Assembly (NCBI GenBank): GCA_048937405.1
Contig: JBHLNF010000007.1
Span: 96,001-160,000 of the forward strand
Length of the DNA: 64,000 bases
From: Promethearchaeota archaeon
GTDB taxonomy: Archaea > Asgardarchaeota > Lokiarchaeia > Sigyniarchaeales > SOKP01
Reading direction: 5' to 3'
Position numbers and translations under genes: made by a program. The notes beneath the pieces are model-generated. The model saw nothing but the letters and a program-made list of their open reading frames with translations, made no database searches and was not told the DNA's origin. Position 1 is the first letter of the stretch; each line of letters opens with the position of its first letter. Shown here piece by piece: positions 7,548 to 54,155 of the stretch.

Positions 7548-8540
7548 TTGACAATTGAAAAGATACTTCAAAAGCTTAACGTTTTATTCAAACAGGCTAA
7601 TTATGAAACATTGGCATTAGGTAATTTTGCAGAAAAAAAAAATAAATTCTGCTTTGATCTTTTAGTCAAAAAGGAGGATTTGGTATTTAGTGTAAAAATT
7701 TTCCCCAATATTGATAATTTAAATCCCAATATCATTCAGGATATCAAATCTTTATCAGCAATCCTCAAATCAAAACCATTATTAATTGGAATTAGGAATA
7801 GATATCAAAATTTAGAAGACAATACAATATATATAAGAGAAAATTTACCTTTTATTACTATTAATACATTTGAAAATATCCTTAATAGCAATTATCCTCA
7901 TATTTTAGCAAGAAGGGGTGGTAAGGTCGTATTTTTAGAGGGATCATTAATGAAAACATTAAGAGAAGATCACTCTATAACAAGAAAAGAACTTTCGGAT
8001 AAATTAGGGATAACGAAAAGAACTGTATGCGCATATGAAAATGAATCTATGAGACCTTCAGAGAAAATTGCAAAAAAAATATCAGAAATATTAGAAAATG
8101 ATGAACTTTTTAAAAAAATTAACATATTTGGATGGCCAATTAAAGTAGATATCAAAAATTTTGAAGAGGAGGAATTGACTGAATTCGAGATTCATGTTCA
8201 AAATATTGTTAAAGATATTGGATTATCTTCATATTGGTATAGAAAAGGTTCTATCCCATTCAAATTATCTCTATATTCTACTTCTGACAAAAAAGAATCA
8301 GAAGGATTTTATCCTCTCTTCTCTGCTATCTCAGAAGAACAAAATAAAATTAATGAAATGAGTTTTAAATGCCTTAAAATGTTCACAGATTTATTCCACA
8401 AAACCTCATTATTTATTATAAACAATGGAATAAAAATACCTGAAATCTTTCATAAAGATAAAATTCCTATTGTCAAAATTAAAAATTTGGAAAAAGTAGA
8501 TGATGAAGAGGAATTCATTGAACTCATCCAAGATTCATGA
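7548..8540 (+). CDS. archaeal HTH-type transcriptional regulator (COG1395-like)
   Basis: CFDLLVKK, NIDNL, ARRGG, central HTH (TRKELSDKLGITKRTVCAYEN). Confidence 0.8.
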   Translation: MTIEKILQKLNVLFKQANYETLALGNFAEKKNKFCFDLLVKKEDLVFSVKIFPNIDNLNPNIIQDIKSLSAILKSKPLLIGIRNRYQNLEDNTIYIRENLPFITINTFENILNSNYPHILARRGGKVVFLEGSLMKTLREDHSITRKELSDKLGITKRTVCAYENESMRPSEKIAKKISEILENDELFKKINIFGWPIKVDIKNFEEEELTEFEIHVQNIVKDIGLSSYWYRKGSIPFKLSLYSTSDKKESEGFYPLFSAISEEQNKINEMSFKCLKMFTDLFHKTSLFIINNGIKIPEIFHKDKIPIVKIKNLEKVDDEEEFIELIQDS

Positions 8541-9245
8541 TGGTAGATCACAATTAATTTGTGGGATAGACGAGGCTGGCAGAATTTAATTCACTTCGAA
8601 TTTATGTTAAAAGGCTCTGTCTTAGGCCCAATGGTTATATGTGGTGTTTGTTTTACTAAATTAAATCTTGACACCCTTTCAGAAATTGGAGTCAAAGATT
8701 CAAAAAAGTTATCTCCTCAAAAAAGAAAAAATTTAGCTGAAATTATCAAAAAGAACTGTAATTCATATAAAATAATTGAGGTAACTGCTCAAGAGATTGA
8801 CGAGAGAGAACAAAAAAAAATTTCTCTGAACCGACTTGAGGAGCTTAAAATGGCTGAAATAGTTAATAACTTAAAACCTGATGTTATTTATATAGATGCT
8901 GCTGATGTCAATGAAAAAAGATTTGGAATATCAATAAAAAAATTATTAAATTATAATCCCAAAAACATCATTTCTAAACATAGAGCAGATGATATTTATC
9001 CTATCGTTTCTGCTGGTTCAATAATAGCTAAGGATAGAAGAGATTTCCTAATTGAAGAAATACATAAAAAATATGGAAATTTTGGTTCTGGTTACCCTTC
9101 GGATCCTAGAACGATCAAATTTCTAAGAGATTATATAAAAAAGTATAAAAAAGCTCCTGGAATTGCAAGAAAAACCTGGGATACTACAAAAAAAATAATA
9201 AATGAAGAAGTATCAAATAAGAAAATAACTGAGTTTTTTAGCTAG
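8500..9245 (+). CDS. rnhB: ribonuclease HII, spliced: join(8500..8582,8612..9245); alternative start TTG at 8518
   Basis: Exon 1 gives LICGIDEAGR and exon 2 gives GSVLGPMV...VKDSKKL...IDAAD...GSGYPSDP. The frames join only if 29 nt are removed. Confidence 0.92.
8583..8611 (+). other. 29-nt BHB-type mRNA intron in rnhB
   Basis: Helix UGGC(8577-80)/GUUA(8606-09), bulges AGA and AAA, inner AAUUC/GAAUU stem; canonical cuts give GGC-AG|A-GGC. Confidence 0.85.
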
Positions 9246-9937
9246 GTTCTTTTTTTTGCTATGAGAATTAAATGATTAGCGGCATATTTATGAATATCTA
9301 CACTTTCTAAAATATCCAAATTTGCATTTTCAAGGATTTTTTTCTCTTGTGCGTATACACGTTCAGATTTCTTAATACTATCTATAGATTGAGATTTTAT
9401 GATAATAATTAATAATCCATCATCTTTTAGATAATAATCGCAATTTTTTATCGCAATTTGGGCTTGTTGGGGTTGAGCAACATCTTGATATATTAAATCT
9501 ACCCTTGTAAAAATATAATTAGCATAACTTTCTGGATAACGAGCATCTGCTAATATTGGTATGATATTTCCTCTATTAGACGAATTCTGAATCAGTTGTC
9601 TCATACTTCTCTCGGCAAATTCTACACCATAAATAATTCCAGAATCTAAAATATCTGAAAGGTGAGAAATAGTCGTTCCTGAAGACGCGCCCAAATATAA
9701 ACAATTAATATTATCGGTAAAAAAATTTGTTAAAGGTTTTTCTAAAATTAGGGCTGCCAATTTACTTCTAAAAGGATCCCATTCTCTATATTCATTTCCC
9801 TTATGGGTTATTAATCTCTCTCCATATACTCTTTTTCCTTCAATTAAATTTTTTGTATAAAGCTTTAATCTTTCTTGAGGCCCAGAAATAAACACATTAC
9901 TATATTTAGGGTGATTTCTTATCTCTATTTTTGACAT
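9242..9937 (-). CDS. flpA: fibrillarin-like rRNA/tRNA 2'-O-methyltransferase
   Basis: VYGER, YREWDPFRSKLAA, LYLGASSGTTISHLSD, DVAQPQQ. Confidence 0.97.
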   Translation of the reverse strand: MSKIEIRNHPKYSNVFISGPQERLKLYTKNLIEGKRVYGERLITHKGNEYREWDPFRSKLAALILEKPLTNFFTDNINCLYLGASSGTTISHLSDILDSGIIYGVEFAERSMRQLIQNSSNRGNIIPILADARYPESYANYIFTRVDLIYQDVAQPQQAQIAIKNCDYYLKDDGLLIIIIKSQSIDSIKKSERVYAQEKKILENANLDILESVDIHKYAANHLILIAKKRT

Positions 9938-9954
9938 TTTCGATCTTTTTTATC

Positions 9955-11157
9955 TTATTTTCTTTTTTTTGATTTTTTTTTACTCCTTACTGATTGTCCT
10001 TTTTTAGGGGGATTTGGATATTTTTTTTCAAGTTCTCTTATTTTGTCCTCAATTTCTTTTGAAAAAACATCTGCTATGTATTCTCCAGAAAAAAAATCCA
10101 CTTTTGCTGAAAGTGCAATTTTTCCTGCCACAATACGCGCAATCTTGCCCCGAATCCAAATTTTAGCCGACCTAATTTGATTCCATTGAAATATCAATCC
10201 ATGTTTCGGTCTTTTTTCACCAGTTTTAAGGAATCTATATAATGCTTTTTCAGCTCCTAATAATTGAATTCTTGACGCTGGCATATATGCCAATTTCTGC
10301 AATCCTCCTGCTTTAGCTATTAATTTAGCCCCGATCAAAGAACCAATGAGAAAATTGACGTTTGGAGCTGTATTCTCCATTAATTCTTCTAAATAATTCT
10401 CTAATTGCTGACGATAAGTATCTAGAGAAATTATTTGTTCTGCGTAGCTCTGTAGAATGTTTAAATCAATATCTGCTCCCATCGATTCTATAGCATATTG
10501 TTCCAATCTTTTAACTTTACCTTCATCGAAATCAAAGATTTCTTCAATATTTTTAGAAGTATAATTTTTTCTAGGACCTATTTTTGAAACCATTTCTGCT
10601 AAAATGATATTATCATCAATTATTTTATCAGTTAATTCTGGGAAATGTAAACCATACCATTCCCTAAGATGACTTGAAAATAAACTAATTGATTTTTTAA
10701 TAACATCTAAAACAGTGATAATTTGAGTAATAATATTATCAGAATGTCCGCTTACCTGACTAACTTTTATCCTTGTTAATTCTTCACTAACTATTTTATA
10801 TTGATTAAGAATTTCTTCCCTTGTTTTACTAATTCCAATTTTTTTTAGATTTTCTTCTAAATTTAAGCGGAATTCTTTAAGTTCCATTGATTTAGGCTCA
10901 AGAATGGTCTTAATTTCAAACTTTTTTGAAGATAATGATTCCAATTTTGCATTATCAAATATAAATTCATTAAAACCTGAATTTTTTAATTCTAATATAA
11001 AATTATCAAATGCATTCTGAATTACATCGTTTTCTAATGCACTATAAAATTCAACAATTTTCACATGGTCATCATCAAAATCAATAAAATCTAAGATATT
11101 TCCAGTTTCATCAAATGCAAAAATTCCAATTAACGTATCTGCTATGAAAGACTTCAT
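9955..11157 (-). CDS. nop5: C/D box RNP protein Nop5 (Nop56/58)
   Basis: REWYGLHFPEL, PASRIQLLGAEKAL, PKHGLIF. Confidence 0.96.
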   Translation of the reverse strand: MKSFIADTLIGIFAFDETGNILDFIDFDDDHVKIVEFYSALENDVIQNAFDNFILELKNSGFNEFIFDNAKLESLSSKKFEIKTILEPKSMELKEFRLNLEENLKKIGISKTREEILNQYKIVSEELTRIKVSQVSGHSDNIITQIITVLDVIKKSISLFSSHLREWYGLHFPELTDKIIDDNIILAEMVSKIGPRKNYTSKNIEEIFDFDEGKVKRLEQYAIESMGADIDLNILQSYAEQIISLDTYRQQLENYLEELMENTAPNVNFLIGSLIGAKLIAKAGGLQKLAYMPASRIQLLGAEKALYRFLKTGEKRPKHGLIFQWNQIRSAKIWIRGKIARIVAGKIALSAKVDFFSGEYIADVFSKEIEDKIRELEKKYPNPPKKGQSVRSKKKSKKRK

Positions 11158-11236
11158 TTTGAAAGGGTAATTTCTTGTTTATTTTTCCTTCATTAATAAT
11201 TATTATAAAACTATAATCATTATTGTCTTTTAAAAA

Positions 11237-12163
11237 ATGCTAGAAGTAAATCTATCTGGGTTAAAATTAAAATCTCCTATTATTTTAGCCTCGGGAATTT
11301 TAGGAGTGTCTTTTTCTTCGATGAAAAGGGTGTTTGATGCTGGAGCTGGTGCAGTTACTACTAAATCCATTGGACCAAAACCAAGAAAGGGTTATAAAAA
11401 TCCATCTATAATTGAAATATATCCCGGAACTTTTATGAATAGCGTAGGTCTAGGTAATCCTGGTATCAATGAATTTATCTCAGAAATAAAAGAAATGAAA
11501 AAATTTGACATTCCACTAATCGTGAGTGTCTTTGGAAATACTAATGACGTTTATCTTGATGTAGCAGTTAAAGCAGAAAACGCAGGAGCTGATGCTATTG
11601 AAATTAATATTTCTTGTCCGCATGCAGAAGTATCTTCTATAGGGATTGATAAAGGATTAACTTTTGAAATTGTACAATTTTTAAAAAAAAAGCTTAAAGT
11701 TCCTCTTTTTGTCAAGTTAAACCCAAATGTGACAAATTTAGTAGAAATTGCTTTAGCAGCAGAAAAAGGAGGTGCTGATGGGGTAGTTGCTATAAATACC
11801 TTGTCAGCTTTGAAAATTGATATAAATACGAAAAGACCAATCCTATCACATGGAAGTGGAGGTCTTTCTGGCAAATCAATTCATCCCGTTGCTATAAAAA
11901 AAGTATATGACTTATATAAAGTCTTAAAAATTCCAATTATTGGATGTGGCGGTATAGATTCTTGGCAAGATGTAATAGAATTCTTTTTAGCTGGCGCCTC
12001 TGCAGTGCAAATCGGTACAGCGTTATATAAAACAACTGATATTATTTCTGAGATTAATAGCGGTATTTCTCAATATCTTAAAGATAATAATTATAAATCT
12101 ATTAATGATTTAAAAGGATTAGCTCATCAGTTTAAAACTCAGGAGGTACCAGATTTTGACTGA
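11237..12163 (+). CDS. pyrD: dihydroorotate dehydrogenase (family 1B) catalytic subunit
   Basis: NSVGLGNPG, EINISCPH, VKLNPN, INTL, GGLSG, GASAVQIGT. Confidence 0.96.
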   Translation: MLEVNLSGLKLKSPIILASGILGVSFSSMKRVFDAGAGAVTTKSIGPKPRKGYKNPSIIEIYPGTFMNSVGLGNPGINEFISEIKEMKKFDIPLIVSVFGNTNDVYLDVAVKAENAGADAIEINISCPHAEVSSIGIDKGLTFEIVQFLKKKLKVPLFVKLNPNVTNLVEIALAAEKGGADGVVAINTLSALKIDINTKRPILSHGSGGLSGKSIHPVAIKKVYDLYKVLKIPIIGCGGIDSWQDVIEFFLAGASAVQIGTALYKTTDIISEINSGISQYLKDNNYKSINDLKGLAHQFKTQEVPDFD

Positions 12164-13010
12164 AAATACAATTAAGACAGTGAAAGTCCGAAACATTATT
12201 GAGGAATGCAAGGATGTAAAAACCCTTGTTTTTAATATGAAAATTAGAAAAAGTGAAAAATATATTACTCCTAAACCTGGACAATTTGTTATGGTATGGA
12301 TACCTGGCATAGATGAGGTACCTATGTCCCTATCTGGATGTGATAGTAATGGAAATTGGTCAATCACAGTTAAAAATGTAGGAGAATGTACAAATGCCAT
12401 GCATAATCTTAATATTGGAGATTATATTGGCATAAGAGGCCCATTAGGCAATCATTTTAAACTAAAAAATCATAATTTAAAAGAAATCTTCTTAATTGGG
12501 GGTGGAATTGGGATGGCTCCATTAAAATACCTCTCTACCCAACTTACTCAGATGAATATTAAACATAGAATTATAGAAGGAGTAAAAAATGAAGATGATA
12601 TTATGTTTAATAACTATTTTCAAGAAGCTATAAGGAATCATTCTGAAATTCACTATTGTACTGATGATGGAAGTTATGGAATAAAAGGTGTTGCTTCTGA
12701 TGTTTTTAAAGAACTGATAAGTAAATCTAATAAAAAAAAACTGTCTAATCTAGTAGTTTATTCCTGTGGTCCAGAAGTTATGCTATTTAAATTATTTCAA
12801 ATATGTCAAGAACAAAAAATTGAGTTTTATGCGAGTCTTGAAAGAATAATGAGATGTGGGTGTGGATTATGTGGTTTATGCGCATTAGATCCATTAGGAT
12901 TACTTGTTTGTAAAGATGGTCCTATATTTAATTCAAAACAATTAGAAAAAATTAAAGACTTCGGAAAATATCAGCGTGATTTTACAGGAAAAAAAATTTT
13001 AGTTAATTGA
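12156..13010 (+). CDS. pyrK: dihydroorotate dehydrogenase electron-transfer subunit
   Basis: PGQFVMVW, RGPLG, GGGIGMAP, CGPEVM, MRCGCGLCGLC...CKDGP. Confidence 0.95.
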   Translation: MTENTIKTVKVRNIIEECKDVKTLVFNMKIRKSEKYITPKPGQFVMVWIPGIDEVPMSLSGCDSNGNWSITVKNVGECTNAMHNLNIGDYIGIRGPLGNHFKLKNHNLKEIFLIGGGIGMAPLKYLSTQLTQMNIKHRIIEGVKNEDDIMFNNYFQEAIRNHSEIHYCTDDGSYGIKGVASDVFKELISKSNKKKLSNLVVYSCGPEVMLFKLFQICQEQKIEFYASLERIMRCGCGLCGLCALDPLGLLVCKDGPIFNSKQLEKIKDFGKYQRDFTGKKILVN

Positions 13011-13252
13011 TTTAATTTTATTGTTTTTCTCTTTTTGATTTTTTTTTAAATATATTAGATTTCGTGAATATCCTCTCTAATTCTGATATCTCTTTTTTCT
13101 AATTTTTTTCTAAAAGAACAAAATCAAATCTAATCAAAGCTTACCAAAAAATCACATCTTACAGAATATTAATAATTTAAACATTAATTTTATAATATTA
13201 ATAAATTAAATAAAATTGATAGAAATTATAATAGAGTTTAATAAATAATTCC

Positions 13253-13822
13253 ATGTGCTTCTATATTACATCAACGCTTCCAAAAAAGGTTAAATTAGAA
13301 GATTTAGAAGAAGTTTTTAAAAAATATAATATGGCTTTTAAATCGATAAAGAATGTATCAATTCAAGATCAATTAAGACCAGAGGAACTTTATTTTAGAG
13401 CAACTAATGCATATTGTGATTGTAATACTATATTGGGTGCCCTAAACACTTCTGAAGAATATAAAAAATTGCTAGATTCTGAAAAGATAAGGAGTTTAAA
13501 AAAGAAAAAGTGGACATCGGAACAAATTGATATCTGGATCCATGAAAAAATTAAAGGGAAAAACCCAAAATTTGAGAAACTTACTGAGATCGAAAAAGAA
13601 AATGAAATAAAAAGATGGAAAGACTTTATTCAAGAGATATTAGCATCAAAAAAGGTTAAGAGAATTGGAATTTTAAAGCACTGGTATAATTCAAGTCTTT
13701 CTGAGGAAAAATTTAAAATTAGAGAATTTAAACAAATACAAATAGACCGATTAAATAAAAATTTACTTTTAAATTTAGAAGAAGATATTCTTTATGAGTT
13801 TATCCCACTTTACAAATATTAA
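13253..13822 (+). CDS. hypothetical protein
   Basis: 189-aa ORF with MC...YCDC...HWY; family not recognised. Confidence 0.65.
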   Translation: MCFYITSTLPKKVKLEDLEEVFKKYNMAFKSIKNVSIQDQLRPEELYFRATNAYCDCNTILGALNTSEEYKKLLDSEKIRSLKKKKWTSEQIDIWIHEKIKGKNPKFEKLTEIEKENEIKRWKDFIQEILASKKVKRIGILKHWYNSSLSEEKFKIREFKQIQIDRLNKNLLLNLEEDILYEFIPLYKY

Positions 13823-13986
13823 TGATATATAATCGTATTTAGACCATTTTTTCAAGAGTAATAATTTATTGAATAATAATCTTTTAAACAATTATTAAAA
13901 GCTTTTTTCATTTTATAGACTGAGGAATAACGATTTTCAGGTTTATAGGTCACAGTTTTTCGAAAGAATTAATTAAAACAATCTAA

Positions 13987-14127
13987 CGCGGTTTATGAGC
14001 ATTAGATCAATTATAATTGCTGGACTATAAGGATGGACAGATTTTTAATCTGGAAACTCTCAAAGAAATTCAGGATTTTGGGAAGTATAAAAGAGATTTT
14101 ACTGGTAAAAAGATATCATTAGAATAG
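13987..14127 (+). pseudogene. decayed duplicate of the pyrK 3' end
   Basis: Translates RGL*ALDQL*LLDYKDGQIFNLETLKEIQDFGKYKRDFTGKKISLE*, versus PyrK CGLCALDPLGLLVCKDGPIFNSKQLEKIKDFGKYQRDFTGKKILVN*. Confidence 0.88.
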
Positions 14128-14130
14128 TTT

Positions 14131-15414: not shown

Positions 15415-15454
15415 TTTTTTATTACCATTTTATTTTTATTTAATTTCATAAAAA

Positions 15455-15489: not shown

Positions 15490-15545
15490 CTGGAAATCAT
15501 CCCTAATCATTACAAAATCAACTTTAAAAATTTTTAAAAATCTTT

Positions 15546-15638: not shown

Positions 15639-15642
15639 TGCT

Positions 15643-19567: not shown

Positions 19568-19741
19568 GTCAAATATAGTTGTACTTTAACTTTAAATTTT
19601 AATAATTATCTAACTGAAAATAAGAAATTAATAGATTAGAAAGAGAAATCATATTATAAAATCTTTATATTAGAACTTAAATCAAAAAGTATAATTTTCA
19701 TGAATGTTTAAATCATTTTAACAAATTGATTAATTTTAAGA

Positions 19742-21401
19742 ATGGAACAATCAGAGAATATAAACTTAAGTAAAGTAAAGAAAATAGCAAGGGAAATAAT
19801 TGAATATCTGTTAATAAATCCTAATACTTCCCGCAGAAAAATTACAAACCTTAAAGGACAAATTGGCAAAAAATATAATTATGATCGAGTAATAAAAAAT
19901 GCCACAATCTTGTCTCATGCAACAAATGAAGAAAAAGAGATTATCACTAAATTATTGAAGAGAAGAACAACAAGAACTATTTCAGGAGTTTCAGTAATTG
20001 CTATTATGACAAAACCTCTTCCTTGTCCTGGAACATGTATTTATTGTCCAGGTGTAAAATCCCAACCAGGAGAAAAAGTTGCCCAATCATATACAGGAAG
20101 AGAACCCGCAGCTATGAGATCAATATATAATAATTATGATCCCTACAAGCAAGTTCAATCTCGAATTAAAGATTTAGAAGCAATTGGGCATAAAGTGGAC
20201 ATGGTTTACGCTTGGTTGTATTCCACCATAAAAGATTGAACTTATTATAATGGGAGGGACATTTTTATCAATAGATTCAGAATATCAAAAACAATTCGTA
20301 AAAGGAGCATTAGAGGGAATAATAGAACAGAAAACAAATACCATAGAAGAAGCTAAGATATTAGCAGAAAAGGCTAAGCGAAGAGTTATAGGAATTACAG
20401 TTGAAACAAGACCAGACTATTGTAAAGAAACCCATATTGATAATATGTTACACTTTGGAACTACTCGAGTCGAAATTGGTATTCAAACAATTTATAATGA
20501 AATCTATGATTTGATAAAAAGAGGACATACTACTGCTGATAGCATTGAATCGATAAGACTTGCTAAAGATGCTGGGTTAAAGATCAATGCTCATATAATG
20601 CCAAATTTACCGGGTTCCAATTATTCTCTAGATTTAAAACTATTTGCCAATTTGTTCTCTATACCAGATTATCGCCCAGATATGTTAAAGATTTATCCCA
20701 CTCTGGTAATAAATGGAACTGAATTATATGATTGGTGGAAAAGTGGTAAATATATGCCCTATTCTGATAAAGAATTAATAGAACTAATTGTAAAAGCTAA
20801 AATCGATCTCCCTCCTTATGTTAGAATTCAAAGAATTATGCGAGATATCCCTGCTACCTTAATTGAAGCAGGTTGTAAGAATAGTAACTTAAGACAGTTA
20901 GTACAAGAACGATTAAAAGAAACTAATCAAATTTGTAAATGTATTAGGTGCAGAGAATATGGAATCAGTAAAAGAAAAGATATTCTCAATGAAGATTCAT
21001 TTGATGATATAAAACTATATCGTTTGGATTATGATGCCTCGCTAGGAAAAGAAATTTTCTTATCTTATGAAAATAAAAAAGAAGGTTATTTAATTGGATA
21101 TTTACGCTTAAGAAAGCCTTCTGAATTTGCTCATAGACCTGAATTGAATGATGGAAAAACAATGATTGTAAGGGAGATTAAAGTCGTTGGTGAATTAGTT
21201 CCTAAAGACATGAAACCAAATAGATATACTCAAATCCAACATAGAGGATATGGTAAACTTTTAATGGAAAATGCTGAGAAAATATCGTTTAAAGATTTCA
21301 AAATGAGTAAATTAGCTGTAATTAGTGGTCTTGGCGCAAAAGACTGGTTTTATGATTTAGGATATAAACCAGATGGTGTATATGTCTCGAAAATTCTTTA
21401 A
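19742..21401 (+). CDS. elp3: Elp3 tRNA U34 acetyltransferase (radical SAM + GNAT), spliced: join(19742..20200,20232..21401), 542 aa
   Basis: CPGTCIYCPG, QSYTGREPA, then GHKVD|KIELIIMGGTF after removing 31 nt; ETRPD, KIYPT, QHRGYG. Confidence 0.93.
20201..20231 (+). other. 31-nt BHB-type mRNA intron in elp3
   Basis: Helix GUGG(20195-98)/CCAU(20226-29), bulges ACA and AAA, inner stems UGG/CCA and UACG/UGUA. Confidence 0.87.
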
Positions 21402-31277: not shown

Positions 31278-31381
31278 CGGGCTATGAGGGAATTTCGCGC
31301 TCACCATTCTTTAAAGAGCGATTCGAACCCCCGACCTGCCGGTTAAGAGCCGGTTGCGCTACCTGCCTGCGCCAATAGCCC
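31278..31381 (-). tRNA. tRNA-Lys(CTT) with a 30-nt T-loop intron (59/60) at 31292-31321
   Basis: Acceptor GGGCUAU/AUAGCCC; loop CU-CUU-AA; BHB UUCG/CGAA with bulges AAU/AUU and inner CGCUC/GAGCG. Confidence 0.95.
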
Positions 31382-31420: not shown

Positions 31421-31522
31421 CGCAGATGGAGGGACTCGAACCCCCGAGCGCTCACGCGCACCGGCTCACTCGGTTGTGAAAAACACTCAAGGCCGGCGTC
31501 TTACCAGCTAGGCTACATCTGC
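31421..31522 (-). tRNA. tRNA-Ser(TGA) with a canonical 19-nt 37/38 intron at 31467-31485
   Basis: Acceptor GCAGAUG/CAUCUGC, long variable arm, CCGGC-CUUGAG|A-GCCGG; BHB CUUG/CGAG. Confidence 0.93.
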
Positions 31523-32278: not shown

Positions 32279-32391
32279 CGCTCAGGGTGGGATTTTCCAA
32301 AATATGCTAAATGCAACATTTTTTCGAACCCACGAATCCATTGGACACCGGTTTAGCAGACCGGCGCTCTACCAGGCTAAGCGACCTGAGC
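32279..32391 (-). tRNA. tRNA-Ser(GCT) with a 30-nt T-loop intron at about 32293-32322
   Basis: Acceptor GCUCAGG/CCUGAGC, CCGGU-CUGCUAA-ACCGG; T-loop region is 37 nt instead of 7; relaxed BHB (UUCG/GGAA). Confidence 0.93.
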
Positions 32392-44577: not shown

Positions 44578-44592
44578 GGAGGATACATTAAA

Positions 44593-46043: not shown

Positions 46044-46259
46044 TTATCTAATAACATTGAAAGATATATAGATTATTATAAATATAATTAATGTTAATAT
46101 CATGATACAATACAAATTTCGAGTTTTTTTAATGTCCTTCATTTTTTGAGAGTTTATCTCTGTTCCACACTTAGGACAATATTTCAAATCCGCTACTTCC
46201 CACCAACGACCATTAAATAAAAACTTTCCACAATTATCACATCTACAATTCATATTCAT
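46044..46259 (-). CDS. small zinc-ribbon membrane protein
   Basis: CDNCG...CPKCG, C-terminal TM. Confidence 0.6.
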   Translation of the reverse strand: MNMNCRCDNCGKFLFNGRWWEVADLKYCPKCGTEINSQKMKDIKKTRNLYCIMILTLIIFIIIYISFNVIR

Positions 46260-46315
46260 GCACTTCTTTATTTCTTGATTTTCCGCGTATTTAATTTAAA
46301 ATTAAAGAGTCTCTT

Positions 46316-46852: not shown

Positions 46853-46857
46853 TTCAT

Positions 46858-47517: not shown

Positions 47518-47578
47518 TTAAAATCTAGCTGTATTTTAATACAATATTGAAAAAATAATATAATAAAAAATATAAAGA

Positions 47579-48520
47579 TTATTTTGGATATTGTTCCTGG
47601 CAGCTTAGGTCCGCTTCTAAACGTTTCCAAGTATGATCCAAGTATTCTTGGAGTCCAATGATTTCTTTTTCTGAAATATTTGCAAATCTTTTCTGTTTAG
47701 ACAGGTAATCCATCATTGGAGCTCTTTTGGAAGGATCCAGTAATGATTTACTTGCTTTTGATAATGTCATGATTCCATTTTCTACTTCGTATAAAATCCA
47801 TGAACCTGTTTTTACAGCTAATCTTGCTACTTCTATTGATTCTGAACTATCCATACCCCAACCAGGTGGACAAGGAGCTAGAATATGAATATATCTGCAA
47901 CCTTTAATCGACTTTGCTTTCTTAAACTTATCATATAAATCAAGTGGTTCACTAATCGAACAAGTAGCTACATAAGGTATATCATGAGCAGCCATAATTG
48001 CTGGAAGATTCTTTTTGAAACGTTCCTTTCCTTTTGTAGTTGTCGTGGTCCATGCTCCATGTGGTGTACTTGAAGATCGTTGAATGCCTGTATTCATATA
48101 TGCCTCATTATCATAACATACATAAATTTGATCAGAATTTCTTTCTGCTGCTCCACTTAAACCTTGAATTCCAATATCCGCTGTTCCACCATCTCCTGCA
48201 AATGTAATTGCTGTCATATCATCCCAGCCCTTACCAGGAAATCTATATGCTTTAGCCTTAAAAGCGGCAGATAAACCTGTTGCAGCTGCGGCTCCCGCAG
48301 CAAAAGCCATATTTGTAAATGGAAAATTTGGAGCTGTTTTAGGCCATAATCCGACAACAACATTAAGACAGGAAGCGGGAGTAACAAGGGCTGTATTGGG
48401 GCCCAATGCTTTCATTGCCCATCTTAGAGCGATTTCTAAACCACATCCTGCACAGCATGAATTTCCTGGAAGAAAATATTCTTCTTGGCAAGATTCTAAT
48501 GCTTCTTTTAATTTTGTCAT
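47579..48520 (-). CDS. porB: pyruvate/2-ketoacid:ferredoxin oxidoreductase beta subunit
   Basis: CAGCG, GDGGTADIG, DNEAYMNTGIQRS. Confidence 0.93.
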   Translation of the reverse strand: MTKLKEALESCQEEYFLPGNSCCAGCGLEIALRWAMKALGPNTALVTPASCLNVVVGLWPKTAPNFPFTNMAFAAGAAAATGLSAAFKAKAYRFPGKGWDDMTAITFAGDGGTADIGIQGLSGAAERNSDQIYVCYDNEAYMNTGIQRSSSTPHGAWTTTTTKGKERFKKNLPAIMAAHDIPYVATCSISEPLDLYDKFKKAKSIKGCRYIHILAPCPPGWGMDSSESIEVARLAVKTGSWILYEVENGIMTLSKASKSLLDPSKRAPMMDYLSKQKRFANISEKEIIGLQEYLDHTWKRLEADLSCQEQYPK

Positions 48521-48524
48521 TATA

Positions 48525-49781
48525 TCATTCCACCTCTAATAATCCGTCCCAGAGAGTTCCATGAATTATATCTTTTGGAAGTTCTCCGGTTTCATTATAT
48601 TTAACTAATTTTTTTAATTGCTCTTTTTGCTGCTCAAGAGAAACTTCTCTTCCCCCTAAACCATTAATTATTGGTAATATTGTGGCAGTTCCTTTGGTTT
48701 CATGAAGTACACCTTTAACTTCACAACTCACTGGTCCTCCTGTTTGAGAACCAAAAGCTGTAGCTCTATCTATAACTCCAAGAACTTTCACCTTTTTAGC
48801 AACATCAAGAATATCTTCTGTAGGAAAGGGTCTAAAATGTCGAAGCTTTACCATACCAACTTTATAACCTTCATCTCTTAATTGATCTACAGCTTCTTCC
48901 ATTTGTAATGCTAAATCTCCATATATAATTACCGCCACGTCTGCATTATCCATTTTGTATTCTTGAATTAGACCATTACCATAATCTCTACCAAATACCT
49001 TCTTAAATTCTGCTGCTGCTTGCTTAATTTTCTCTTTAGCTTTCATAAATGCATCATGAATCTTTAATCGAAATTCATAATAAAAACCAGAAGGCATGAT
49101 AAGATTGCCAAACATCATTGGTCTTTTTGGGTCCATCCAAATATGTGGCCAACCTTCCTCACTCGGTAATGGCGGTATGTATTTATCTACAAGATCTTGA
49201 TCTTCAATAATAACAGGTTTAGAAGTATGTGAGAGAATAAATCCTCCATATGCAACAAATTTAGGCAAAAGAATATCCTGATCTTCGCAAACCTTATACG
49301 ACATTAATATTTCATCATAAATTTCTTGATGGGCAGCACAGAAAGAACTCATCCATCCTGTATCACGCTGACTTATTACGTCAGTAAAATCCGCCCAAAT
49401 ATTCCAGGGTGGTGCGGGTGCTCGAGATGCTATAGCGACTACAATAGGAAGTCTAGCACCACCAGCCCAATGAATCATTTCATGAGCATAAAATATACCC
49501 TGACCAGATGTTGCAGTGAAAGTTCTAGTACCTGCTTTACTGGCACCCACCACTGCTCCGAAAACACTATGTTCTGATTCCACTTTAATATATTCAGTTC
49601 CAGGCATTTCCCCATTGTCAACGAATTCTGATAATTTTTCGACAACAGTGGTTTGTGGAGTGATAGGATAAGCACTAATCACCTGCACTCGTGCGGATTT
49701 TGCTGCATAAGCTGCTGCTACATTTCCTTTTATAATAATAGTTTCTCTTTCTTGAATAAAATCTTTCTGAGCTTCAGTCAT
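48525..49781 (-). CDS. porA: pyruvate/2-ketoacid:ferredoxin oxidoreductase alpha subunit
   Basis: AYPITPQT, ESEHS, TFTATSGQG, FRPFP, GLGGR. Confidence 0.93.
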   Translation of the reverse strand: MTEAQKDFIQERETIIIKGNVAAAYAAKSARVQVISAYPITPQTTVVEKLSEFVDNGEMPGTEYIKVESEHSVFGAVVGASKAGTRTFTATSGQGIFYAHEMIHWAGGARLPIVVAIASRAPAPPWNIWADFTDVISQRDTGWMSSFCAAHQEIYDEILMSYKVCEDQDILLPKFVAYGGFILSHTSKPVIIEDQDLVDKYIPPLPSEEGWPHIWMDPKRPMMFGNLIMPSGFYYEFRLKIHDAFMKAKEKIKQAAAEFKKVFGRDYGNGLIQEYKMDNADVAVIIYGDLALQMEEAVDQLRDEGYKVGMVKLRHFRPFPTEDILDVAKKVKVLGVIDRATAFGSQTGGPVSCEVKGVLHETKGTATILPIINGLGGREVSLEQQKEQLKKLVKYNETGELPKDIIHGTLWDGLLEVE

Positions 49782-50121
49782 TTTTTATATCACTCTCCCT
49801 TATCATATCTATGTTATTTGTTGGGCATTCTTTTGCACATATACCACATCCTTTACAGTATAACAAATCAATTTCGAATGTGCCATCTTCTTTTCTTTTA
49901 ATTACACCCTCTGGACAATACATCCAGCATATTCCACACTTATTACATCCTTCTTTAATTATAGGTCTAAAAGTTCTCCAATCGCCAGTTGTACCAATAT
50001 TTCCTTCAATGGGTAATGATATTGGAATTGGAGGTAATTCTTTCCAATTTTTATATTCTTGAACCTTAGGACGCTCTTTTATTGATTTATTAATTTTCTT
50101 CCATTTTTTTGATTCTGACAT
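49774..50121 (-). CDS. porD: 2-ketoacid oxidoreductase delta (ferredoxin) subunit
   Basis: TGDWRTFRP, CNKCGICWMYCP, CKGCGICAKECP. Confidence 0.93.
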   Translation of the reverse strand: MSESKKWKKINKSIKERPKVQEYKNWKELPPIPISLPIEGNIGTTGDWRTFRPIIKEGCNKCGICWMYCPEGVIKRKEDGTFEIDLLYCKGCGICAKECPTNNIDMIRESDIKND

Positions 50122-50123
50122 GA

Positions 50124-50699
50124 TTAAACCTCTTTAACTGATTCATATGCATCTTTAGCAACGCTCATATTTTTCTCTAATCTGTTTTCTCCAAATTCCT
50201 TCGTAATAACTTTCTCCATAGTTTCTAAATTATAGTATCCTGTAACCTTCCCGAAAGCTCCTAACATAGGTATATTTAAAATTGGTCCACTTGCATGCAT
50301 AAAATTCCTTTTAATACATATCCCTGTGGCATCTACAAGAAAGATCTTAATGTTATTTGGGAGATCACTTTTATCTATTTTATTAGCACTATTAATTATG
50401 AGATTAACTCCTTCTTTTATTGTACTTCTAATCGTGGGAATCTCTAATAATGAAGTATCAAAAATAAGCATATAATCAGGATTTTTTACACTATCATACG
50501 TTTTAATTGATTTATTTTTCGAAACTTTTGTAAATGCTTGAATTGGAGCACCTCTTCGTTCAGCTCCAATTATCGGAATTGCAATTGTATCCTTGAAATC
50601 TTCCTCGTATGCCATTTCTGCTAACAATTGACTCGCAGTAATACATGTCTGACCACCTCTACAATGCATCGATATTTCTACTATCTTTTCATTCGACAT
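50124..50699 (-). CDS. porG: 2-ketoacid oxidoreductase gamma subunit
   Basis: RGGQ, GAERRGAP, VDATGI, NIPMLGA. Confidence 0.9.
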   Translation of the reverse strand: MSNEKIVEISMHCRGGQTCITASQLLAEMAYEEDFKDTIAIPIIGAERRGAPIQAFTKVSKNKSIKTYDSVKNPDYMLIFDTSLLEIPTIRSTIKEGVNLIINSANKIDKSDLPNNIKIFLVDATGICIKRNFMHASGPILNIPMLGAFGKVTGYYNLETMEKVITKEFGENRLEKNMSVAKDAYESVKEV

Positions 50700-51101
50700 T
50701 TTTTTCCACTTTTTTCTTTTTTAATTTTTATATGCAATTTTCTCAGAACAACCAACAAAAACGCCGAGATATAACTTTTCTGGGTTGTCTGTTAGTTAAA
50801 TTCTTATACTAATACAAGAATAAGAATTAATGATAATAATACTAATAAGTTTCGGATAATAATACTATGATTTTTGCCTATAATCATCATTATTTCCTCG
50901 ACGTTATAATATTATTCAAAAATTTATAATACTTTTATTTAATATCTTAAAAAACAGTGATCAATAAAAAATTTTCGAAATAGATTTATAATTTTGGGAA
51001 TAATAAACAAAAAAGTAATTAGCTTAATTAGATAAATATCAAAACAGAAAAAAAGTAGTGTTTATTATTTTAAATTAAATAAACCGTTTTATATTGAAGT
51101 T

Positions 51102-51665
51102 ATGTCAGAAAAGGCAGCAAATTCAGAAGAAGTTTTTTCCTTCAAGTGCCCAACTTGTAAAAATGGTATAATTGCCATTAAAAAAGCGATATATGACTTG
51201 CCAGATGGGGATAAAATGCTGATATTAAAATTTGAATGCAATTCCTGTAATTTCCATAAAAACGATATAATCCCCTTAACTACAAATATGGAATCGGGAA
51301 TTATGACCTTAAGAATTACCGAAGAGAATGACCTAAAATCTAAGATTTACCGATCACCTACAGGTAAATTAGAGATTCCTGAACTAGATATAATAGTAGA
51401 ACCGGGTCCCAGAGCTGATTTCTATTATACTAACGTACAAGGTATATTATTTCGATTTGAACAGGCAGTCTCAATATATAGAAATAGCCTTGAAAAGAAT
51501 GATCCAGCTAAAAGTGAAATGGATGAACTTTTATCTACTTTAAAACATGCTATAGAAGGTAAATTTAAGTTTACTTTAAAATTGACAGATTTCCAGGGAG
51601 GTAGTTATATCATTCCTGAAGATAAATCAAAATACACTTTCAAGAAAATTCAGAAAGAGGAATGA
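51102..51665 (+). CDS. ZPR1-type zinc finger protein
   Basis: CPTC...CNSC, IPEL.I.VEPG, TNVQGIL. Confidence 0.88.
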   Translation: MSEKAANSEEVFSFKCPTCKNGIIAIKKAIYDLPDGDKMLILKFECNSCNFHKNDIIPLTTNMESGIMTLRITEENDLKSKIYRSPTGKLEIPELDIIVEPGPRADFYYTNVQGILFRFEQAVSIYRNSLEKNDPAKSEMDELLSTLKHAIEGKFKFTLKLTDFQGGSYIIPEDKSKYTFKKIQKEE

Positions 51666-51800
51666 TTTAGGATTTTTTTCTAATTTTATAATCTTTTTAT
51701 GAAAATTAAAAAATCAGAAAGTTAAGAAAGCTAAGAGATTTAAGAAGGAAGTTAATCAATTTATTGTAACAAGAAATTCTTAGCTAGAAAGAGACAAATA

Positions 51801-52877
51801 ATGCAGCGAGAGATAAAACACTACAATAGGTGGTTAACTAATAATATTCAAGGTTATCTAAAAGGACTTAAGGGTGAAATCAGGGTCCTATTTGAACCAT
51901 ATATAGAATTCAAAAAAATGGGTACACTTTTTGGGCTTTACAAAAATTACATTCCAACTAATAGGATGCATAAATATTGTAGAAAAATTATAGCTAAAAA
52001 TACTTTAGATAAAATGCGTGCTAAATTCAAAAAATTTATTGAAATTTGGATAGAAAAATACCCACATTTGGTTCAGTCATTATTATTAGTACAATCTTAT
52101 ATTATGAAGTATATTGATGAATATGAGGTAATTCTTCAACCAAAACCTTCCCCAGATTATCAAATGTACAAATTCCATCCTGCTTTTAAAAGAAACTATT
52201 TTGAAATAATCGATACATATGAAAAAGCATATTGGCTTGGATTTCTATTTGCTGATGGATGGATTGCAATAGAACATAAGAAATCTGGAGATTATTATCG
52301 AATGGGGCTCCAATTATCATATAGCGATAAAAGAGTTGTTAAGGAACTTTGTAAATGTATAGGATTAAATCCCAGTTTTATTAAAATTCGTCTAGTAAAA
52401 AGTGATTTTAGTACGAAAATATATCCTATAAGTGAAATTAGATGGGGAGATCAGAAAATGGCTCAAGATCTATTAAAAATAGGGATGAGATATGAAAATA
52501 ATGAAGAAAAAGGAAGACGAGTTAAAACACCAAAACTTCCAAACTTAAAAAACCGAAATTTGATGCTAGCATTTTTATTAGGTTTCTATGATGGTGATGG
52601 CACCCTTGGATATGATAAAAAGACTGGTAAAATTCGTCCTAGAATTGCTTCCTCAGATATTGAATTTTTACGACAAATAAAAAATTTTTTTGGAATTAAA
52701 TACAAAATTTCTTCCACTGCGATGTTATATTTCAATATTAGAAAAAAGAAAATGATTAAAACAAGAGGGAGTAGACTTGATATTGAAAAAGAGATTTTTA
52801 AAAAAATGTTAAGTGTATATAAAAAAAGTCTTGAAAGGAAAAGAGTTTCATTAGATTATTTTAATGGTACTCATTAA
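51801..52877 (+). CDS. free-standing two-motif LAGLIDADG homing endonuclease-like protein
   Basis: YWLGFLFADG and AFLLGFYDGDG; no intein termini or host-gene flanks seen. Confidence 0.85.
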   Translation: MQREIKHYNRWLTNNIQGYLKGLKGEIRVLFEPYIEFKKMGTLFGLYKNYIPTNRMHKYCRKIIAKNTLDKMRAKFKKFIEIWIEKYPHLVQSLLLVQSYIMKYIDEYEVILQPKPSPDYQMYKFHPAFKRNYFEIIDTYEKAYWLGFLFADGWIAIEHKKSGDYYRMGLQLSYSDKRVVKELCKCIGLNPSFIKIRLVKSDFSTKIYPISEIRWGDQKMAQDLLKIGMRYENNEEKGRRVKTPKLPNLKNRNLMLAFLLGFYDGDGTLGYDKKTGKIRPRIASSDIEFLRQIKNFFGIKYKISSTAMLYFNIRKKKMIKTRGSRLDIEKEIFKKMLSVYKKSLERKRVSLDYFNGTH

Positions 52878-52975
52878 AATTGAATAAAATAGTTATTGAT
52901 ATAAGATATTTTTTTTATAATTTGCATTCTTTCTAATAGATATAATATCAAAAAACGTTTTAGAAGAAGGTTTAT

Positions 52976-54155
52976 ATGACAATAAAACGAGTAGGAATTT
53001 TAACAGGCGGCGGAGTCATGTCTAAGATTTAACTTAACTGCCGTTTACTGTCCTGGGTTAAATTCTGTTCTCTATGGAATCATGCTTAAAGGTTATGATG
53101 CAGGAATTGAATGTGTTGGGATCCTGAAAGGATGGAAAGGATTTGTGGAAAATCAAACAATTCCACTTGATATTGCAGAACATGATGATTTACATACTGT
53201 TGGTGGAACAATTTTATATACAAGTAGAACAAATCCCTTTAAAAATGTGAGTTCAAAAGAGCAAAAAGCAAAAAATTTAACCAAAAAATTTGAAGAATTA
53301 GGAATTGATGCTCTAATTGCTATCGGTGGAGATGATACTCTTGGAGTAGCTGATACTATATATAAGTTTGGAGATGCTAAGGTAGTTGGAGTGCCCAAAA
53401 CCATTGATAATGATTTAGCAGGGACTCATTATACATTTGGATTTTGGAGTGCTGTACAATTAGCTTCAAATACTCTCGATAATCTTACTACTACTGCTCA
53501 TTCACATCAGAGAGTATTTGTTGTAGAAATTATGGGAAGGGATGCTGGTTTTTTAACAATGTATAGCGGAATTTCTGCAGGAGCAGATATAATCTTAATT
53601 CCAGAAACTCCATTTGATTTAGAAAAAGATATAATAAATGTTTTGAAAAATCGAGTTGATGCAGGATATAAATATCACATTATTGCTACATCAGAAGGAG
53701 CATATCCTAAATTAGAATCGCTAAATAGAGATTTTAAAACTATTTCAAAAGAAACAATTGATAAACTACCGAAGGATACATATGGAAATCCTTTATTGGC
53801 TAAATTAGGTATGTCTAAAATAATTGTCGATGAACTTGATTTAAGAGATGATTTAAAAGAAAAATTTCAAGAAAATGGAGTAGAATTTGAGTGTAGAAGT
53901 GTAGTACTTGGTCATACTATGCGAGCAGGAACTCCAAATTCATTTGATAGAATATTAGGGTTAAGATTTGGATTAGCAGCAATGAAACTTGTTTTAAACG
54001 GTGAATTTGGGAATATGGTCTCTCTTCAAGGAAATAAAATTCAAACAGTTCCCTTATCAGAAGGAGTTAAAAAGAAATATATCACCACCGAGAATGATAA
54101 AATGGAATTAAGAGATCTTTTAGTAAAAATCCGCTATTTATCCAAACAAAAATAA
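52976..54155 (+). CDS. pfp: phosphofructokinase, PPi-type signature, spliced: join(52976..53015,53047..54155), 382 aa
   Basis: MTIKRVGILTGGGDCPGLN after removing 31 nt; GGDDT and PKTIDND (PPi-type residues); MGRDAG. Confidence 0.92.
53016..53046 (+). other. 31-nt BHB-type mRNA intron in pfk
   Basis: Helix GCGG(53010-13)/CCGU(53041-44), bulges AGU and UUA, inner CA/UG, GU/AC and UAAG/CUUA stems; cuts give GGA-G|AC-UGU. Confidence 0.9.

What the first reader, a model, noticed from the sequence alone, without database searches (positions are those of the whole stretch)
8500..54155. A family of ~30-nt BHB micro-introns in both protein-coding genes and tRNAs of a probable Asgard archaeon
Seen: three unrelated housekeeping genes (rnhB, elp3, pfk) are each broken at a conserved motif by a 29-31 nt insert. 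Each junction has a 4-bp exon/intron helix flanked by 3-nt bulges. Cutting after the second bulge nucleotide, the standard archaeal EndA rule, restores both the frame and the motif in all three. The same geometry is present at six tRNA introns in the window. Known: EndA/RtcB splice BHB introns in archaeal tRNA and rRNA; as far as I know mRNA cases are rare (cbf5 of some crenarchaea is the classic one). Inference: three in 64 kb suggests many per genome, i.e. routine mRNA splicing by the tRNA machinery in a relative of eukaryotes. Annotation pipelines would call these genes split or pseudogenes.
Basis: partly seen in the sequence, partly recalled or inferred. Interest (0 to 1): 0.97.

Follow-up and report, generated by a model that had tools for sequence, protein, structure and literature searches.

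The report
tRNA-type mini-introns in Asgard protein genes
Three ordinary single-copy genes (RNase HII, Elp3, phosphofructokinase) of a Loki-type Asgard archaeon are each broken by a 29-31-base insert shaped like an archaeal tRNA intron, and comparison with dozens of related genomes shows these are real, selected and apparently mobile introns that must be cut out of the mRNA, which papers report inside a coding sequence for only one archaeal gene (cbf5).

Summary
The core observation holds. rnhB (intron 8583-8611), elp3 (20201-20231) and pfk (53016-53046) are each interrupted inside a conserved motif. Intron-less orthologues in related genomes are contiguous at exactly the predicted junctions. 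Each insert stops or shifts the frame. Each shows the canonical bulge-helix-bulge (BHB) geometry: a 4-bp exon/intron helix, 3-nt bulges, and a cut after the second bulge base.

- All three genes are single-copy and under strong purifying selection (dN/dS 0.06-0.16).
- The rnhB helices show compensatory changes in 22 species.
- The genome encodes two EndA paralogues and RtcB.
- A structure-blind comparison with a sister genome found seven more such introns in this genome, so at least ten exist. This window is richer than average.
- The pfk intron sits in 18 of 76 species and needs 15 changes on the gene tree. A free-standing LAGLIDADG gene or its remnants lies upstream only in carriers, so the intron looks mobile as DNA.
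- Only three tRNA introns are present, not six.
- No RNA data could be obtained, so splicing is inferred, not observed.

This scan has reported the same phenomenon before, elsewhere in this genome and in other Asgard genomes. I found no paper describing it.

The parts
8500..8582 (+). rnhB exon 1, ending ...ICGIDEAG + AG of the Arg codon. The start codon is uncertain. An in-frame ATG at 8500 overlaps the upstream gene. The conserved part is 8557-8582.
   Evidence: All five variable columns of exon 1 across 22 species are synonymous third-codon positions in this frame.
8583..8611 (+). rnhB BHB intron, 29 nt (30 nt in the 22 other species scored). The unspliced frame meets TAA two codons into the intron.
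   Evidence: 92% of cells paired, 4 pairs with changes on both sides, 0 of 500 shuffles reach this.
8612..9245 (+). rnhB exon 2 (RNase HII from Pfam profile position 9 onward).
   Evidence: dN/dS 0.10-0.16.
19742..20200 (+). elp3 exon 1 (ELP3_N domain, ends ...GHKVD).
20201..20231 (+). elp3 BHB intron, 31 nt, relaxed HBh' form with no outer helix. The unspliced frame ends at TGA 20237-20239.
   Evidence: The MFE fold gives exactly GUGG/CCAU, bulge ACA and UGG/CCA. Present in 2 of 43 genomes of the genus.
20232..21401 (+). elp3 exon 2 (KIELIIMGGTF..., radical SAM plus Radical_SAM_C).
   Evidence: dN/dS 0.07-0.13.
52976..53015 (+). pfk exon 1 (MTIKRVGILTGGG plus G of the Asp codon).
53016..53046 (+). 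pfk BHB intron, 31 nt. The unspliced frame meets TAA.
   Evidence: Structure 96.7% paired in 16 carriers against 33-52% for slid controls.
53047..54155 (+). pfk exon 2 (AC of the Asp codon, then CPGLN...; PFK from Pfam profile position 11 onward).
   Evidence: dN/dS 0.06-0.10.
31421..31522 (-). tRNA-Ser(UGA) with a 19-nt BHB intron at 37/38 (31467-31485).
   Evidence: The BHB rule gives anticodon UGA, which fits the long variable arm. ARAGORN misplaces the intron and calls it Thr.
31278..31381 (-). tRNA-Lys(CUU) with a 30-nt canonical hBHBh' intron at 59/60 in the T-loop (31292-31321).
32279..32391 (-). tRNA-Ser(GCU) with a 30-nt BHB intron at 59/60 (32293-32322). The central helix has 3 of 4 pairs.
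51801..52877 (+). Free-standing LAGLIDADG endonuclease gene. It ends 98 nt before the pfk start and 139 nt before the pfk intron site.
   Evidence: Pfam LAGLIDADG_3. Homologues or remnants lie upstream of pfk in 6 of 18 intron carriers and 0 of 58 non-carriers.

Best explanation

Proposed mechanism (inferred):
1. After transcription, four bases of the 5' exon pair with four bases near the 3' end of the intron.
2. An AT-rich intron hairpin stacks on one side. In rnhB and pfk an exon-exon helix stacks on the other.
3. Each splice site then lies in a 3-nt bulge.
4. The archaeal splicing endonuclease EndA cuts after the second bulge base on each strand. EndA is present as two paralogues, one resembling the catalytic alpha subunit of crenarchaeal heterotetramers.
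5. RtcB joins the exons.
6. This restores the frame and the catalytic motifs GIDEAGRG, GHxVDKIE and GGGDCPG.

The same geometry serves the three tRNA introns in the window.

Shown here: the inserts are real and lie exactly where intron-less orthologues are contiguous. The structure is conserved with compensation. The genes are single-copy and selected. The enzymes are encoded.

Inferred: the cleavage and ligation themselves.

At the DNA level the introns come and go. The pfk and elp3 introns are patchily distributed. The pfk intron is linked to a neighbouring free-standing LAGLIDADG endonuclease gene, and elp3 shows a recombination tract. This suggests spread by homing or gene conversion (inference, about 50%).
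For: Junctions and motifs.

Orthologue comparison:
- rnhB carries the insert at this site in all 22 genus genomes that could be scored, and the gene is contiguous in 6 genomes of other families.
- The rnhB intron is 30 nt with an in-frame TAA elsewhere and 29 nt (frameshifting) here. Only precise excision gives one product in both cases.
- elp3 carries the intron in 2 of 43 genus genomes. The rest read GHxVD|KIEL without a break.
- pfk carries the intron in 18 of 76 species. The rest read GGGD without a break.

Structure:
- rnhB: 92% of cells paired against 23-46% for slid controls. Four pairs change on both sides (0 of 500 shuffles). The exon Gly wobble base covaries with the intron: UG, CG, UA, GC.
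- pfk: 96.7% paired. A divergent allele pairs gtgg with CCAC.

Structure-blind census against a sister genome: 11 homology-defined 29-31-nt inserts, of which 8 have a 4/4 central helix exactly at the junction. The random rate is 2.6%. Pfam profiles run continuously across the junctions.

Selection: dN/dS 0.06-0.16, including pairs where both lineages carry the intron. All exon-1 variation in rnhB is synonymous.

Copy number: one copy of each gene in the genome.

Machinery: two EndA paralogues and one RtcB. Asgard EndA is reported as the broad-specificity (alpha-beta)2 type (PMC5829648).

Mobility:
- 15 state changes for 18 carriers on the pfk tree.
- LAGLIDADG gene or remnants in 6 of 18 carriers against 0 of 58 non-carriers.
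- The 5' part of elp3 is 87-95% identical to the other carrier, against 50-85% to non-carriers.
Against: - No spliced transcript, circular intron or junction peptide has been seen.
- The hairpins are not unusually stable: z-scores are -1.1, +0.5 and -0.8 against shuffles.
- For rnhB and pfk, the MFE fold of this genome's own sequence prefers a slightly different register from the BHB register.
- In this genome the rnhB central helix has two G-U pairs, and elp3 lacks the outer helix. Cleavage would therefore need a broad-specificity EndA, which was not tested.
- A relaxed BHB pattern alone is common in this AT-rich genome. A structure-only genome scan showed no enrichment over a mirror-image control.
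- elp3 covariation rests on two sequences only.
Confidence: 0.85

Rival explanations
1. The genes are pseudogenes, or split genes in decay, and the inserts are neutral debris.
For: Each insert stops or shifts the frame. Annotation pipelines would call these genes broken.
Against: dN/dS is 0.06-0.16, including between two intron-bearing lineages at dS 0.6-1.4. Exons are full-length with no other stops. Each gene is the only copy in the genome. The rnhB insert is kept in 22 species, with compensatory changes and only synonymous exon-1 changes.
Confidence: 0.02
2. The inserts stay in the mRNA and the ribosome skips them, by translational bypass (as in T4 gene 60) or by frameshifting.
For: rnhB has matching GGC/GGY codons before and after the insert. 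A hairpin and a nearby stop follow the take-off site.
Against: In pfk the Asp codon is split G|AC, and no landing codon would regenerate GGGDC. In elp3 the only GAT landing site is followed by TGA. A hop in rnhB would delete the conserved Arg-Gly. The exon/intron helix covariation and the identical geometry in tRNA introns have no role in bypassing.
Confidence: 0.03
3. The inserts are real and are removed from RNA, but by something other than EndA/RtcB: another nuclease/ligase pair, or cleavage without re-ligation as a regulatory switch.
For: The helices are weak in places, and no enzyme assay exists. In Haloferax, EndA cuts a 5'-UTR BHB with a regulatory effect (PMC7714728).
Against: The cut sites required by protein homology coincide with the EndA rule in 3 of 3 window genes. 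In the genome census, 8 of 11 inserts have a 4/4 central helix at the homology-defined junction. EndA and RtcB are both present. Selection on exon 1 requires the exons to be rejoined.
Confidence: 0.07
4. The inserts are assembly or binning artefacts.
For: The genome is a 29-contig MAG with 5.7% estimated contamination.
Against: The same inserts at the same sites occur in many independently assembled MAGs from different studies and in two closed chromosomes. They differ between assemblies by point substitutions.
Confidence: 0.01

Closest known systems
BHB intron in the cbf5 (pseudouridine synthase) pre-mRNA of Crenarchaeota (Watanabe 2002; Yokobori 2009, PMC2738675)
   Same: A short BHB intron inside a coding sequence. 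It is presumed to be cut by a heteromeric EndA and re-ligated. It has been gained and lost among related species.
   Different: cbf5 is one gene in thermophilic Crenarchaeota, and its splicing has been demonstrated. Here at least 10 unrelated housekeeping genes in one Asgard genome carry such introns. The size class is narrow (29-31 nt). Presence varies between species of one genus, one intron is linked to a homing-endonuclease gene, and there is no RNA evidence yet.
Intron-rich tRNA genes of Asgard archaea (Valentin-Alvarado 2024, PMC11291895; bioRxiv 10.64898/2026.10.13.758758)
   Same: The same lineage and the same BHB geometry. Non-canonical positions occur, such as 59/60 in two tRNAs of this window. 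Gains are repeated.
   Different: Those studies cover tRNA genes only. Neither mentions introns in protein-coding genes.
BHB element in the 5' UTR of Haloferax volcanii HVO_1309 mRNA (Schwarz 2020, PMC7714728)
   Same: EndA acts on an mRNA.
   Different: That element lies in an untranslated region, so no reading frame has to be restored.
Archaeal rRNA BHB introns that encode LAGLIDADG homing endonucleases, and 'collaborative homing' of phage introns with free-standing endonucleases (from my own knowledge, not checked here)
   Same: A LAGLIDADG gene is associated with an intron that is patchily distributed, and flanking sequence is co-converted.
   Different: Here the endonuclease gene lies outside a 31-nt intron, in the upstream intergenic region. 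Its target and activity are unknown.
IRE1/RtcB splicing of XBP1 and HAC1 mRNA in eukaryotes
   Same: Spliceosome-independent mRNA splicing by a structure-specific endonuclease plus the tRNA ligase. It shifts or restores a reading frame.
   Different: The endonuclease (IRE1) and the RNA motif are different, and that event is regulated by stress. Here splicing appears constitutive and obligatory.

Membership tests
Archaeal BHB introns (EndA/RtcB substrates) | Two 3-nt bulges on opposite strands separated by a 4-bp helix, with cleavage after the second bulge nucleotide. | tested here: met
   rnhB UGGC/GUUA, elp3 GUGG/CCAU and pfk GCGG/CCGU, with bulges AG|A, AC|A and AG|U (5') and AA|A, AA|A and UU|A (3'). 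elp3 lacks the outer helix (relaxed HBh'). The chance rate of the pattern is 0.41% per site.
Archaeal BHB introns (EndA/RtcB substrates) | Precise excision restores a functional sequence. | tested here: met
   Intron-less orthologues are contiguous at exactly these junctions. Pfam profiles continue across them.
Archaeal BHB introns (EndA/RtcB substrates) | The helices are maintained by selection (compensatory change). | tested here: met
   rnhB: 4 pairs with changes on both sides, 0 of 500 shuffles. pfk: conserved, with little variation. elp3: only 2 sequences, so inconclusive.
Archaeal BHB introns (EndA/RtcB substrates) | The host encodes the splicing endonuclease and the RtcB ligase. | tested here: met
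   Two EndA paralogues above the Pfam cut-off; one is closest to the A. pernix catalytic subunit 3P1Z_B. One RtcB. Broad substrate range is taken from PMC5829648 and was not assayed.
Archaeal BHB introns (EndA/RtcB substrates) | Spliced RNA and an excised (often circular) intron are observed. | not testable with these tools
   No RNA run is listed for this DNA. The read-laying run failed.
Mobile introns that spread by homing with an endonuclease | Patchy distribution that is incongruent with the host gene tree. | tested here: met
   pfk intron: 18 carriers need 15 changes on the pfk tree. elp3 intron: 2 of 43 genomes, and the two carriers are not each other's closest relatives by elp3 identity.
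Mobile introns that spread by homing with an endonuclease | A homing-endonuclease gene is physically linked to the intron. | tested here: met
   For pfk only. A LAGLIDADG gene sits at 51801-52877. Homologues or remnants lie upstream of pfk in 6 of 18 carriers and 0 of 58 non-carriers. No linked endonuclease gene was seen beside rnhB or elp3.
Mobile introns that spread by homing with an endonuclease | The flanking exon sequence is co-converted. | tested here: inconclusive
   The 5' part of elp3 is 87-95% identical to the other carrier, against 50-85% to non-carriers. Most pfk carriers share a different 5' end, MTIK... instead of MGNQIKK.... This is suggestive, but no formal recombination test was run.
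Mobile introns that spread by homing with an endonuclease | The endonuclease cuts the intron-less allele and spares the intron-bearing one. | not testable with these tools
   This needs a biochemical assay.

The most novel reading that the evidence does not exclude
In Lokiarchaeia-type Asgard archaea, the tRNA-splicing enzymes EndA and RtcB routinely splice messenger RNAs. A class of roughly 30-nt mini-introns invades ordinary protein-coding genes as DNA, helped in some cases by free-standing LAGLIDADG endonucleases. The closest archaeal relatives of eukaryotes would then already live with mobile, obligatorily spliced introns in their protein genes.
Probability: 0.45. Interest if true: 0.95.

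Novelty: new variant of a known kind. Interest (0 to 1): 0.85.

Why it matters
Papers I could search report BHB splicing inside an archaeal coding sequence for one gene only, cbf5. They also report one 5'-UTR case.

Here at least ten unrelated housekeeping genes in one Asgard genome depend on it. These include RNase HII, Elp3, phosphofructokinase, a histone and UppS. A sister genome carries such introns in EF-2 and purA.

Consequences:
- mRNA splicing by protein enzymes is an ordinary part of gene expression in the archaeal lineage closest to eukaryotes.
- Standard annotation of these genomes miscalls essential genes as broken or truncated.
- Presence/absence differences between species, together with a linked homing-endonuclease gene, offer a tractable system for studying how introns colonise protein-coding genes.

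The claim can be tested directly with RT-PCR on enrichment cultures or with metatranscriptomes.

Tried and rejected
1. RNA evidence. The run search listed no RNA holder for this DNA ('no RNA holder listed'). Neither expression nor raw-read support could be examined.

2. Structure-only discovery across the genome. I combined a relaxed BHB pattern with an open-reading-frame fusion test, and compared it with a mirror-image (non-substrate) geometry as control. There was no enrichment at any score threshold.

3. The same scan, with the added requirement that the BHB and the ORF fusion be conserved in the sister genome. Again no enrichment: 173 loci against 193 for the control. Introns shared by both genomes, such as rnhB, therefore could not be counted, and the total of 10 is a lower bound.

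4. ARAGORN finds none of the tRNAs by default. With introns allowed it finds one and misplaces its intron.

5. Thermodynamic stability. z-scores of the three mRNA elements are unremarkable, so stability is not used as evidence.

6. Neighbouring same-strand ORF pairs in the window were checked with Pfam for further split genes: fibrillarin/Nop5, PyrD/PyrK, GatE/GatD, L37ae/Pcc1 and the POR subunits. All are separate genes.

7. Tocchini-Valentini 2011 (PMC3064391) could not be read.

Full report
**What is in the sequence**

The window is G000:C25:96001-160000 of a 4.47-Mb, 29% G+C genome in 29 contigs. Three genes are interrupted.

- rnhB reads ...ATA GAC GAG GCT GGC AG, then 29 nt (8583-8611), then A GGC TCT GTC....
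- elp3 reads ...CAT AAA GTG GAC, then 31 nt (20201-20231), then AAG ATT GAA....
- pfk reads ...GGC GGC GGA G, then 31 nt (53016-53046), then AC TGT CCT GGG....

Unspliced, the upstream frames end at TAA, TGA and TAA within or just after the inserts. Removing the inserts gives GIDEAG-R-GSVLGP, GHKVD-KIELIIMGGTF and GILTGGG-D-CPGLN.

Pfam places exon 2 of rnhB at profile position 9 of RNase_HII and exon 2 of pfk at position 11 of PFK. It splits Elp3 between ELP3_N and the later part of the radical-SAM domain.

**Geometry**

In the canonical archaeal BHB motif, four exon bases lying two bases upstream of the 5' cut pair with four intron bases lying two bases upstream of the 3' cut. Each cut follows the second base of a 3-nt bulge. 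At the junctions fixed by the protein sequence I find:

| Gene | Central helix | 5' bulge | 3' bulge | Inner helix | Outer helix |
|---|---|---|---|---|---|
| rnhB | UGGC/GUUA | AG\|A | AA\|A | 2 bp, then a 5-bp hairpin | yes, with one mismatch |
| elp3 | GUGG/CCAU | AC\|A | AA\|A | UGG/CCA | none (relaxed HBh' form) |
| pfk | GCGG/CCGU | AG\|U | UU\|A | 2 bp, then a hairpin | yes, with one bulged U |

The pattern of a 4/4 central helix plus at least 2 bp of inner helix occurs at 0.41% of random position pairs with a 29-31 nt spacing in this genome. Allowing for one or two equivalent registers, three of three is about 3e-7.

RNAfold recovers the exact BHB for elp3 and for the three pre-tRNAs. 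For rnhB and pfk it prefers a neighbouring register. None of the three mRNA elements is unusually stable. The case therefore rests on position and comparison, not on folding energy.

**tRNAs**

Rfam, a G+C-island scan and a T-arm scan find three tRNA genes, each with one intron.

- Ser(UGA): 19 nt at 37/38.
- Lys(CUU): 30 nt at 59/60, a textbook hBHBh'.
- Ser(GCU): 30 nt at 59/60, with 3 of 4 central pairs.

The same cutting rule gives correct mature tRNAs. ARAGORN misplaces the Ser(UGA) intron and calls it Thr.

**Comparison with relatives**

Relatives are deposited as Promethearchaeota or Promethearchaeia (Lokiarchaeia-type Asgard) MAGs, including two closed chromosomes.

*rnhB.* All 22 same-genus genomes that could be scored carry the insert at the same site. 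Six genomes of other families in the order read G[IL]DEAGRG without a break. In the other 22 species the insert is 30 nt with an in-frame TAA. Here it is 29 nt and shifts the frame. Only exact excision gives the same protein in both cases.

The five variable columns of exon 1 are all synonymous third-codon positions. On the alignment, 92% of cells are paired, against 23-46% when partners are slid. Four pairs change on both sides (0 of 500 shuffles). The wobble base of the exon Gly codon covaries with its intron partner: UG 13, CG 4, UA 4, GC 1.

*elp3.* Only this genome and G024, of 43 genus genomes with the gene, carry the insert. All others read GHxVD|KIEL contiguously.

*pfk.* 18 of 76 species carry the insert and 58 read GGGD contiguously. 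In 16 carriers the structure is 96.7% paired, against 33-52% for slid controls. Two carriers hold a divergent intron in which exon gtgg pairs with CCAC or CCAT, instead of gcgg with CCGU. Carriers use GGC GGC GGA GAC TGC CCx where non-carriers use GGA GGA GGA GAT TGT CCT. These synonymous choices build the exon helices.

**Are the genes alive?**

Each gene has one copy in the genome. dN/dS of the exons is 0.06-0.16. This includes pairs in which both lineages carry the intron, at dS 0.6-1.4. The catalytic Asp of GIDEAG and the GGD of PFK lie in or across exon 1, so products of exon 2 alone would be inactive (established knowledge of these families).

Translational bypass cannot rebuild the split Asp codon of pfk or read through elp3 (sequence).

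**Machinery**

The genome encodes two EndA paralogues, each with N-terminal and catalytic domains. One is closest to the catalytic subunit of the Aeropyrum pernix heterotetramer (3P1Z_B). It also encodes one RtcB, 35 kb upstream of the window. Asgard EndA has been described as the (alpha-beta)2 type with the loop that confers broad specificity (PMC5829648).

**How many per genome?**

Structure-only scans cannot find these introns. Candidates were no more frequent than under a mirror-image control.

I therefore fetched the closed 2.27-Mb genome of a sister species, G023 = CP070805.1. I compared all ORFs in both directions by tblastn and looked for short inserts that break otherwise collinear alignments. 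About 670,000 residues aligned.

This gave nine 29-31-nt inserts in G000 that are absent from G023:
- elp3 and pfk (both in this window)
- methylmalonyl-CoA mutase
- UppS
- a GHMP (mevalonate-type) kinase
- a histone
- a Glycos_transf_3 phosphorylase
- an Fe-S protein
- an AIR-synthase-family protein

It also gave two inserts in G023 that are absent from G000, in EF-2 and purA. Pfam profiles run continuously across the junctions.

Although defined without reference to structure, 8 of the 11 have a 4/4 central helix exactly at the junction (2.6% expected). Ten of the 11 have at least 3/4 plus an inner hairpin.

Adding rnhB, which both genomes share, this genome has at least ten mRNA introns. 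Introns shared by the two genomes are otherwise uncounted. The true density is well below the three per 64 kb of this window.

**Mobility**

On a tree of the pfk coding sequence, built without the intron regions, 18 carriers among 77 rows need 15 changes of state. Yet the 31-nt introns of 16 carriers have 92% mean column identity.

A 358-aa LAGLIDADG gene (51801-52877) ends 98 nt before the pfk start. Among 76 species scored for the intron, a full-length homologue (L242), a degraded one (L264) or short remnants (L215, L234, L268) lie upstream of pfk only in intron carriers. That is 6 of 18 against 0 of 58. A simple hypergeometric p is about 1e-4, not corrected for relatedness. Most carriers also share a different pfk 5' end.

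For elp3, the 5' part of the gene is 87-95% identical between the two carriers but 50-85% identical to non-carriers. The 3' part shows no such excess.

These patterns fit spread of intron-bearing segments by homing or gene conversion. The endonuclease's target is unknown, and rnhB and elp3 have no linked endonuclease gene.

**Literature**

Full-text searches found BHB splicing of an archaeal coding sequence only for cbf5 (PMC2738675). They also found one 5'-UTR case in Haloferax (PMC7714728, which states that cbf5 is the only other example). Asgard intron papers deal with tRNA genes only (PMC11291895; bioRxiv 10.64898/2026.10.13.758758).

Earlier notes of this scan report the same kind of intron in other genes of this genome and in other Asgard genomes. 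My census independently recovered three of them: uppS, the mevalonate-type kinase and the phosphorylase.

**Verdict**

It is a new variant of a known kind: the cbf5-type mRNA BHB intron, here as a multi-gene, polymorphic and probably mobile system in Asgard archaea.

Noticed in passing
window 51801-52877 (+): A free-standing LAGLIDADG endonuclease gene lies directly upstream of the intron-bearing pfk. Homologues or remnants occur upstream of pfk only in species whose pfk carries the intron (6 of 18 against 0 of 58). Five paralogues lie elsewhere in the genome (C20, C10, C28, C7 twice).
   Followed up: partly
L217, L226, L234-L237, L239, L245, L246, L249, L255, L262, L264, L268 (pfk loci of relatives); equivalent to window position after 53331: A second 30-nt insert splits pfk at IGG|DD(T), again after GGAG and before AC, in 14 of 80 relatives but not in this genome. 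Its central helix has only 2-3 pairs, so it is a relaxed BHB.
   Followed up: partly
window 8500-8560: rnhB has no canonical start codon close to GIDEAG in this genome (TTA ATT TGT GGG...). Seven relatives have TTG or GTG nine codons before the junction. Otherwise the nearest in-frame starts are a TTG at 8518 and the ATG pair at 8500/8503, all inside the 3' end of the upstream HTH gene.
   Followed up: partly
G000 C23:740-769 (-), locus L305: A histone-fold gene (CBFD_NFYB_HMF) is split by a 30-nt BHB intron 13 codons before its stop.
   Followed up: partly
G023 (CP070805.1) around 1,382,055 (+) and at the position equivalent to 1,973,889 on the minus strand: The sister genome has 30-31-nt BHB inserts in EF-2 (inside ...DSD|DEEQERGITI) and in adenylosuccinate synthetase (SWGD|EGKGK). 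Both are absent from this genome.
   Followed up: partly
window 31421-31522 (-): ARAGORN calls this class-II tRNA Thr(UGU) because it misplaces the intron. The BHB rule gives Ser(UGA), which matches the long variable arm.
   Followed up: yes
window 19680-20560: The 5' third of elp3, including the intron, is much closer to G024 than the rest of the gene is. This indicates a recombination tract of roughly 0.7-0.9 kb.
   Followed up: partly
all ten verified mRNA introns of G000: All are 29-31 nt long, the same as the two T-loop tRNA introns (30 nt). They have no evident sequence similarity beyond an AT-rich hairpin. Intron phases are mixed (0, 1 and 2). The reason for the narrow size class is unexplained.
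   Followed up: no
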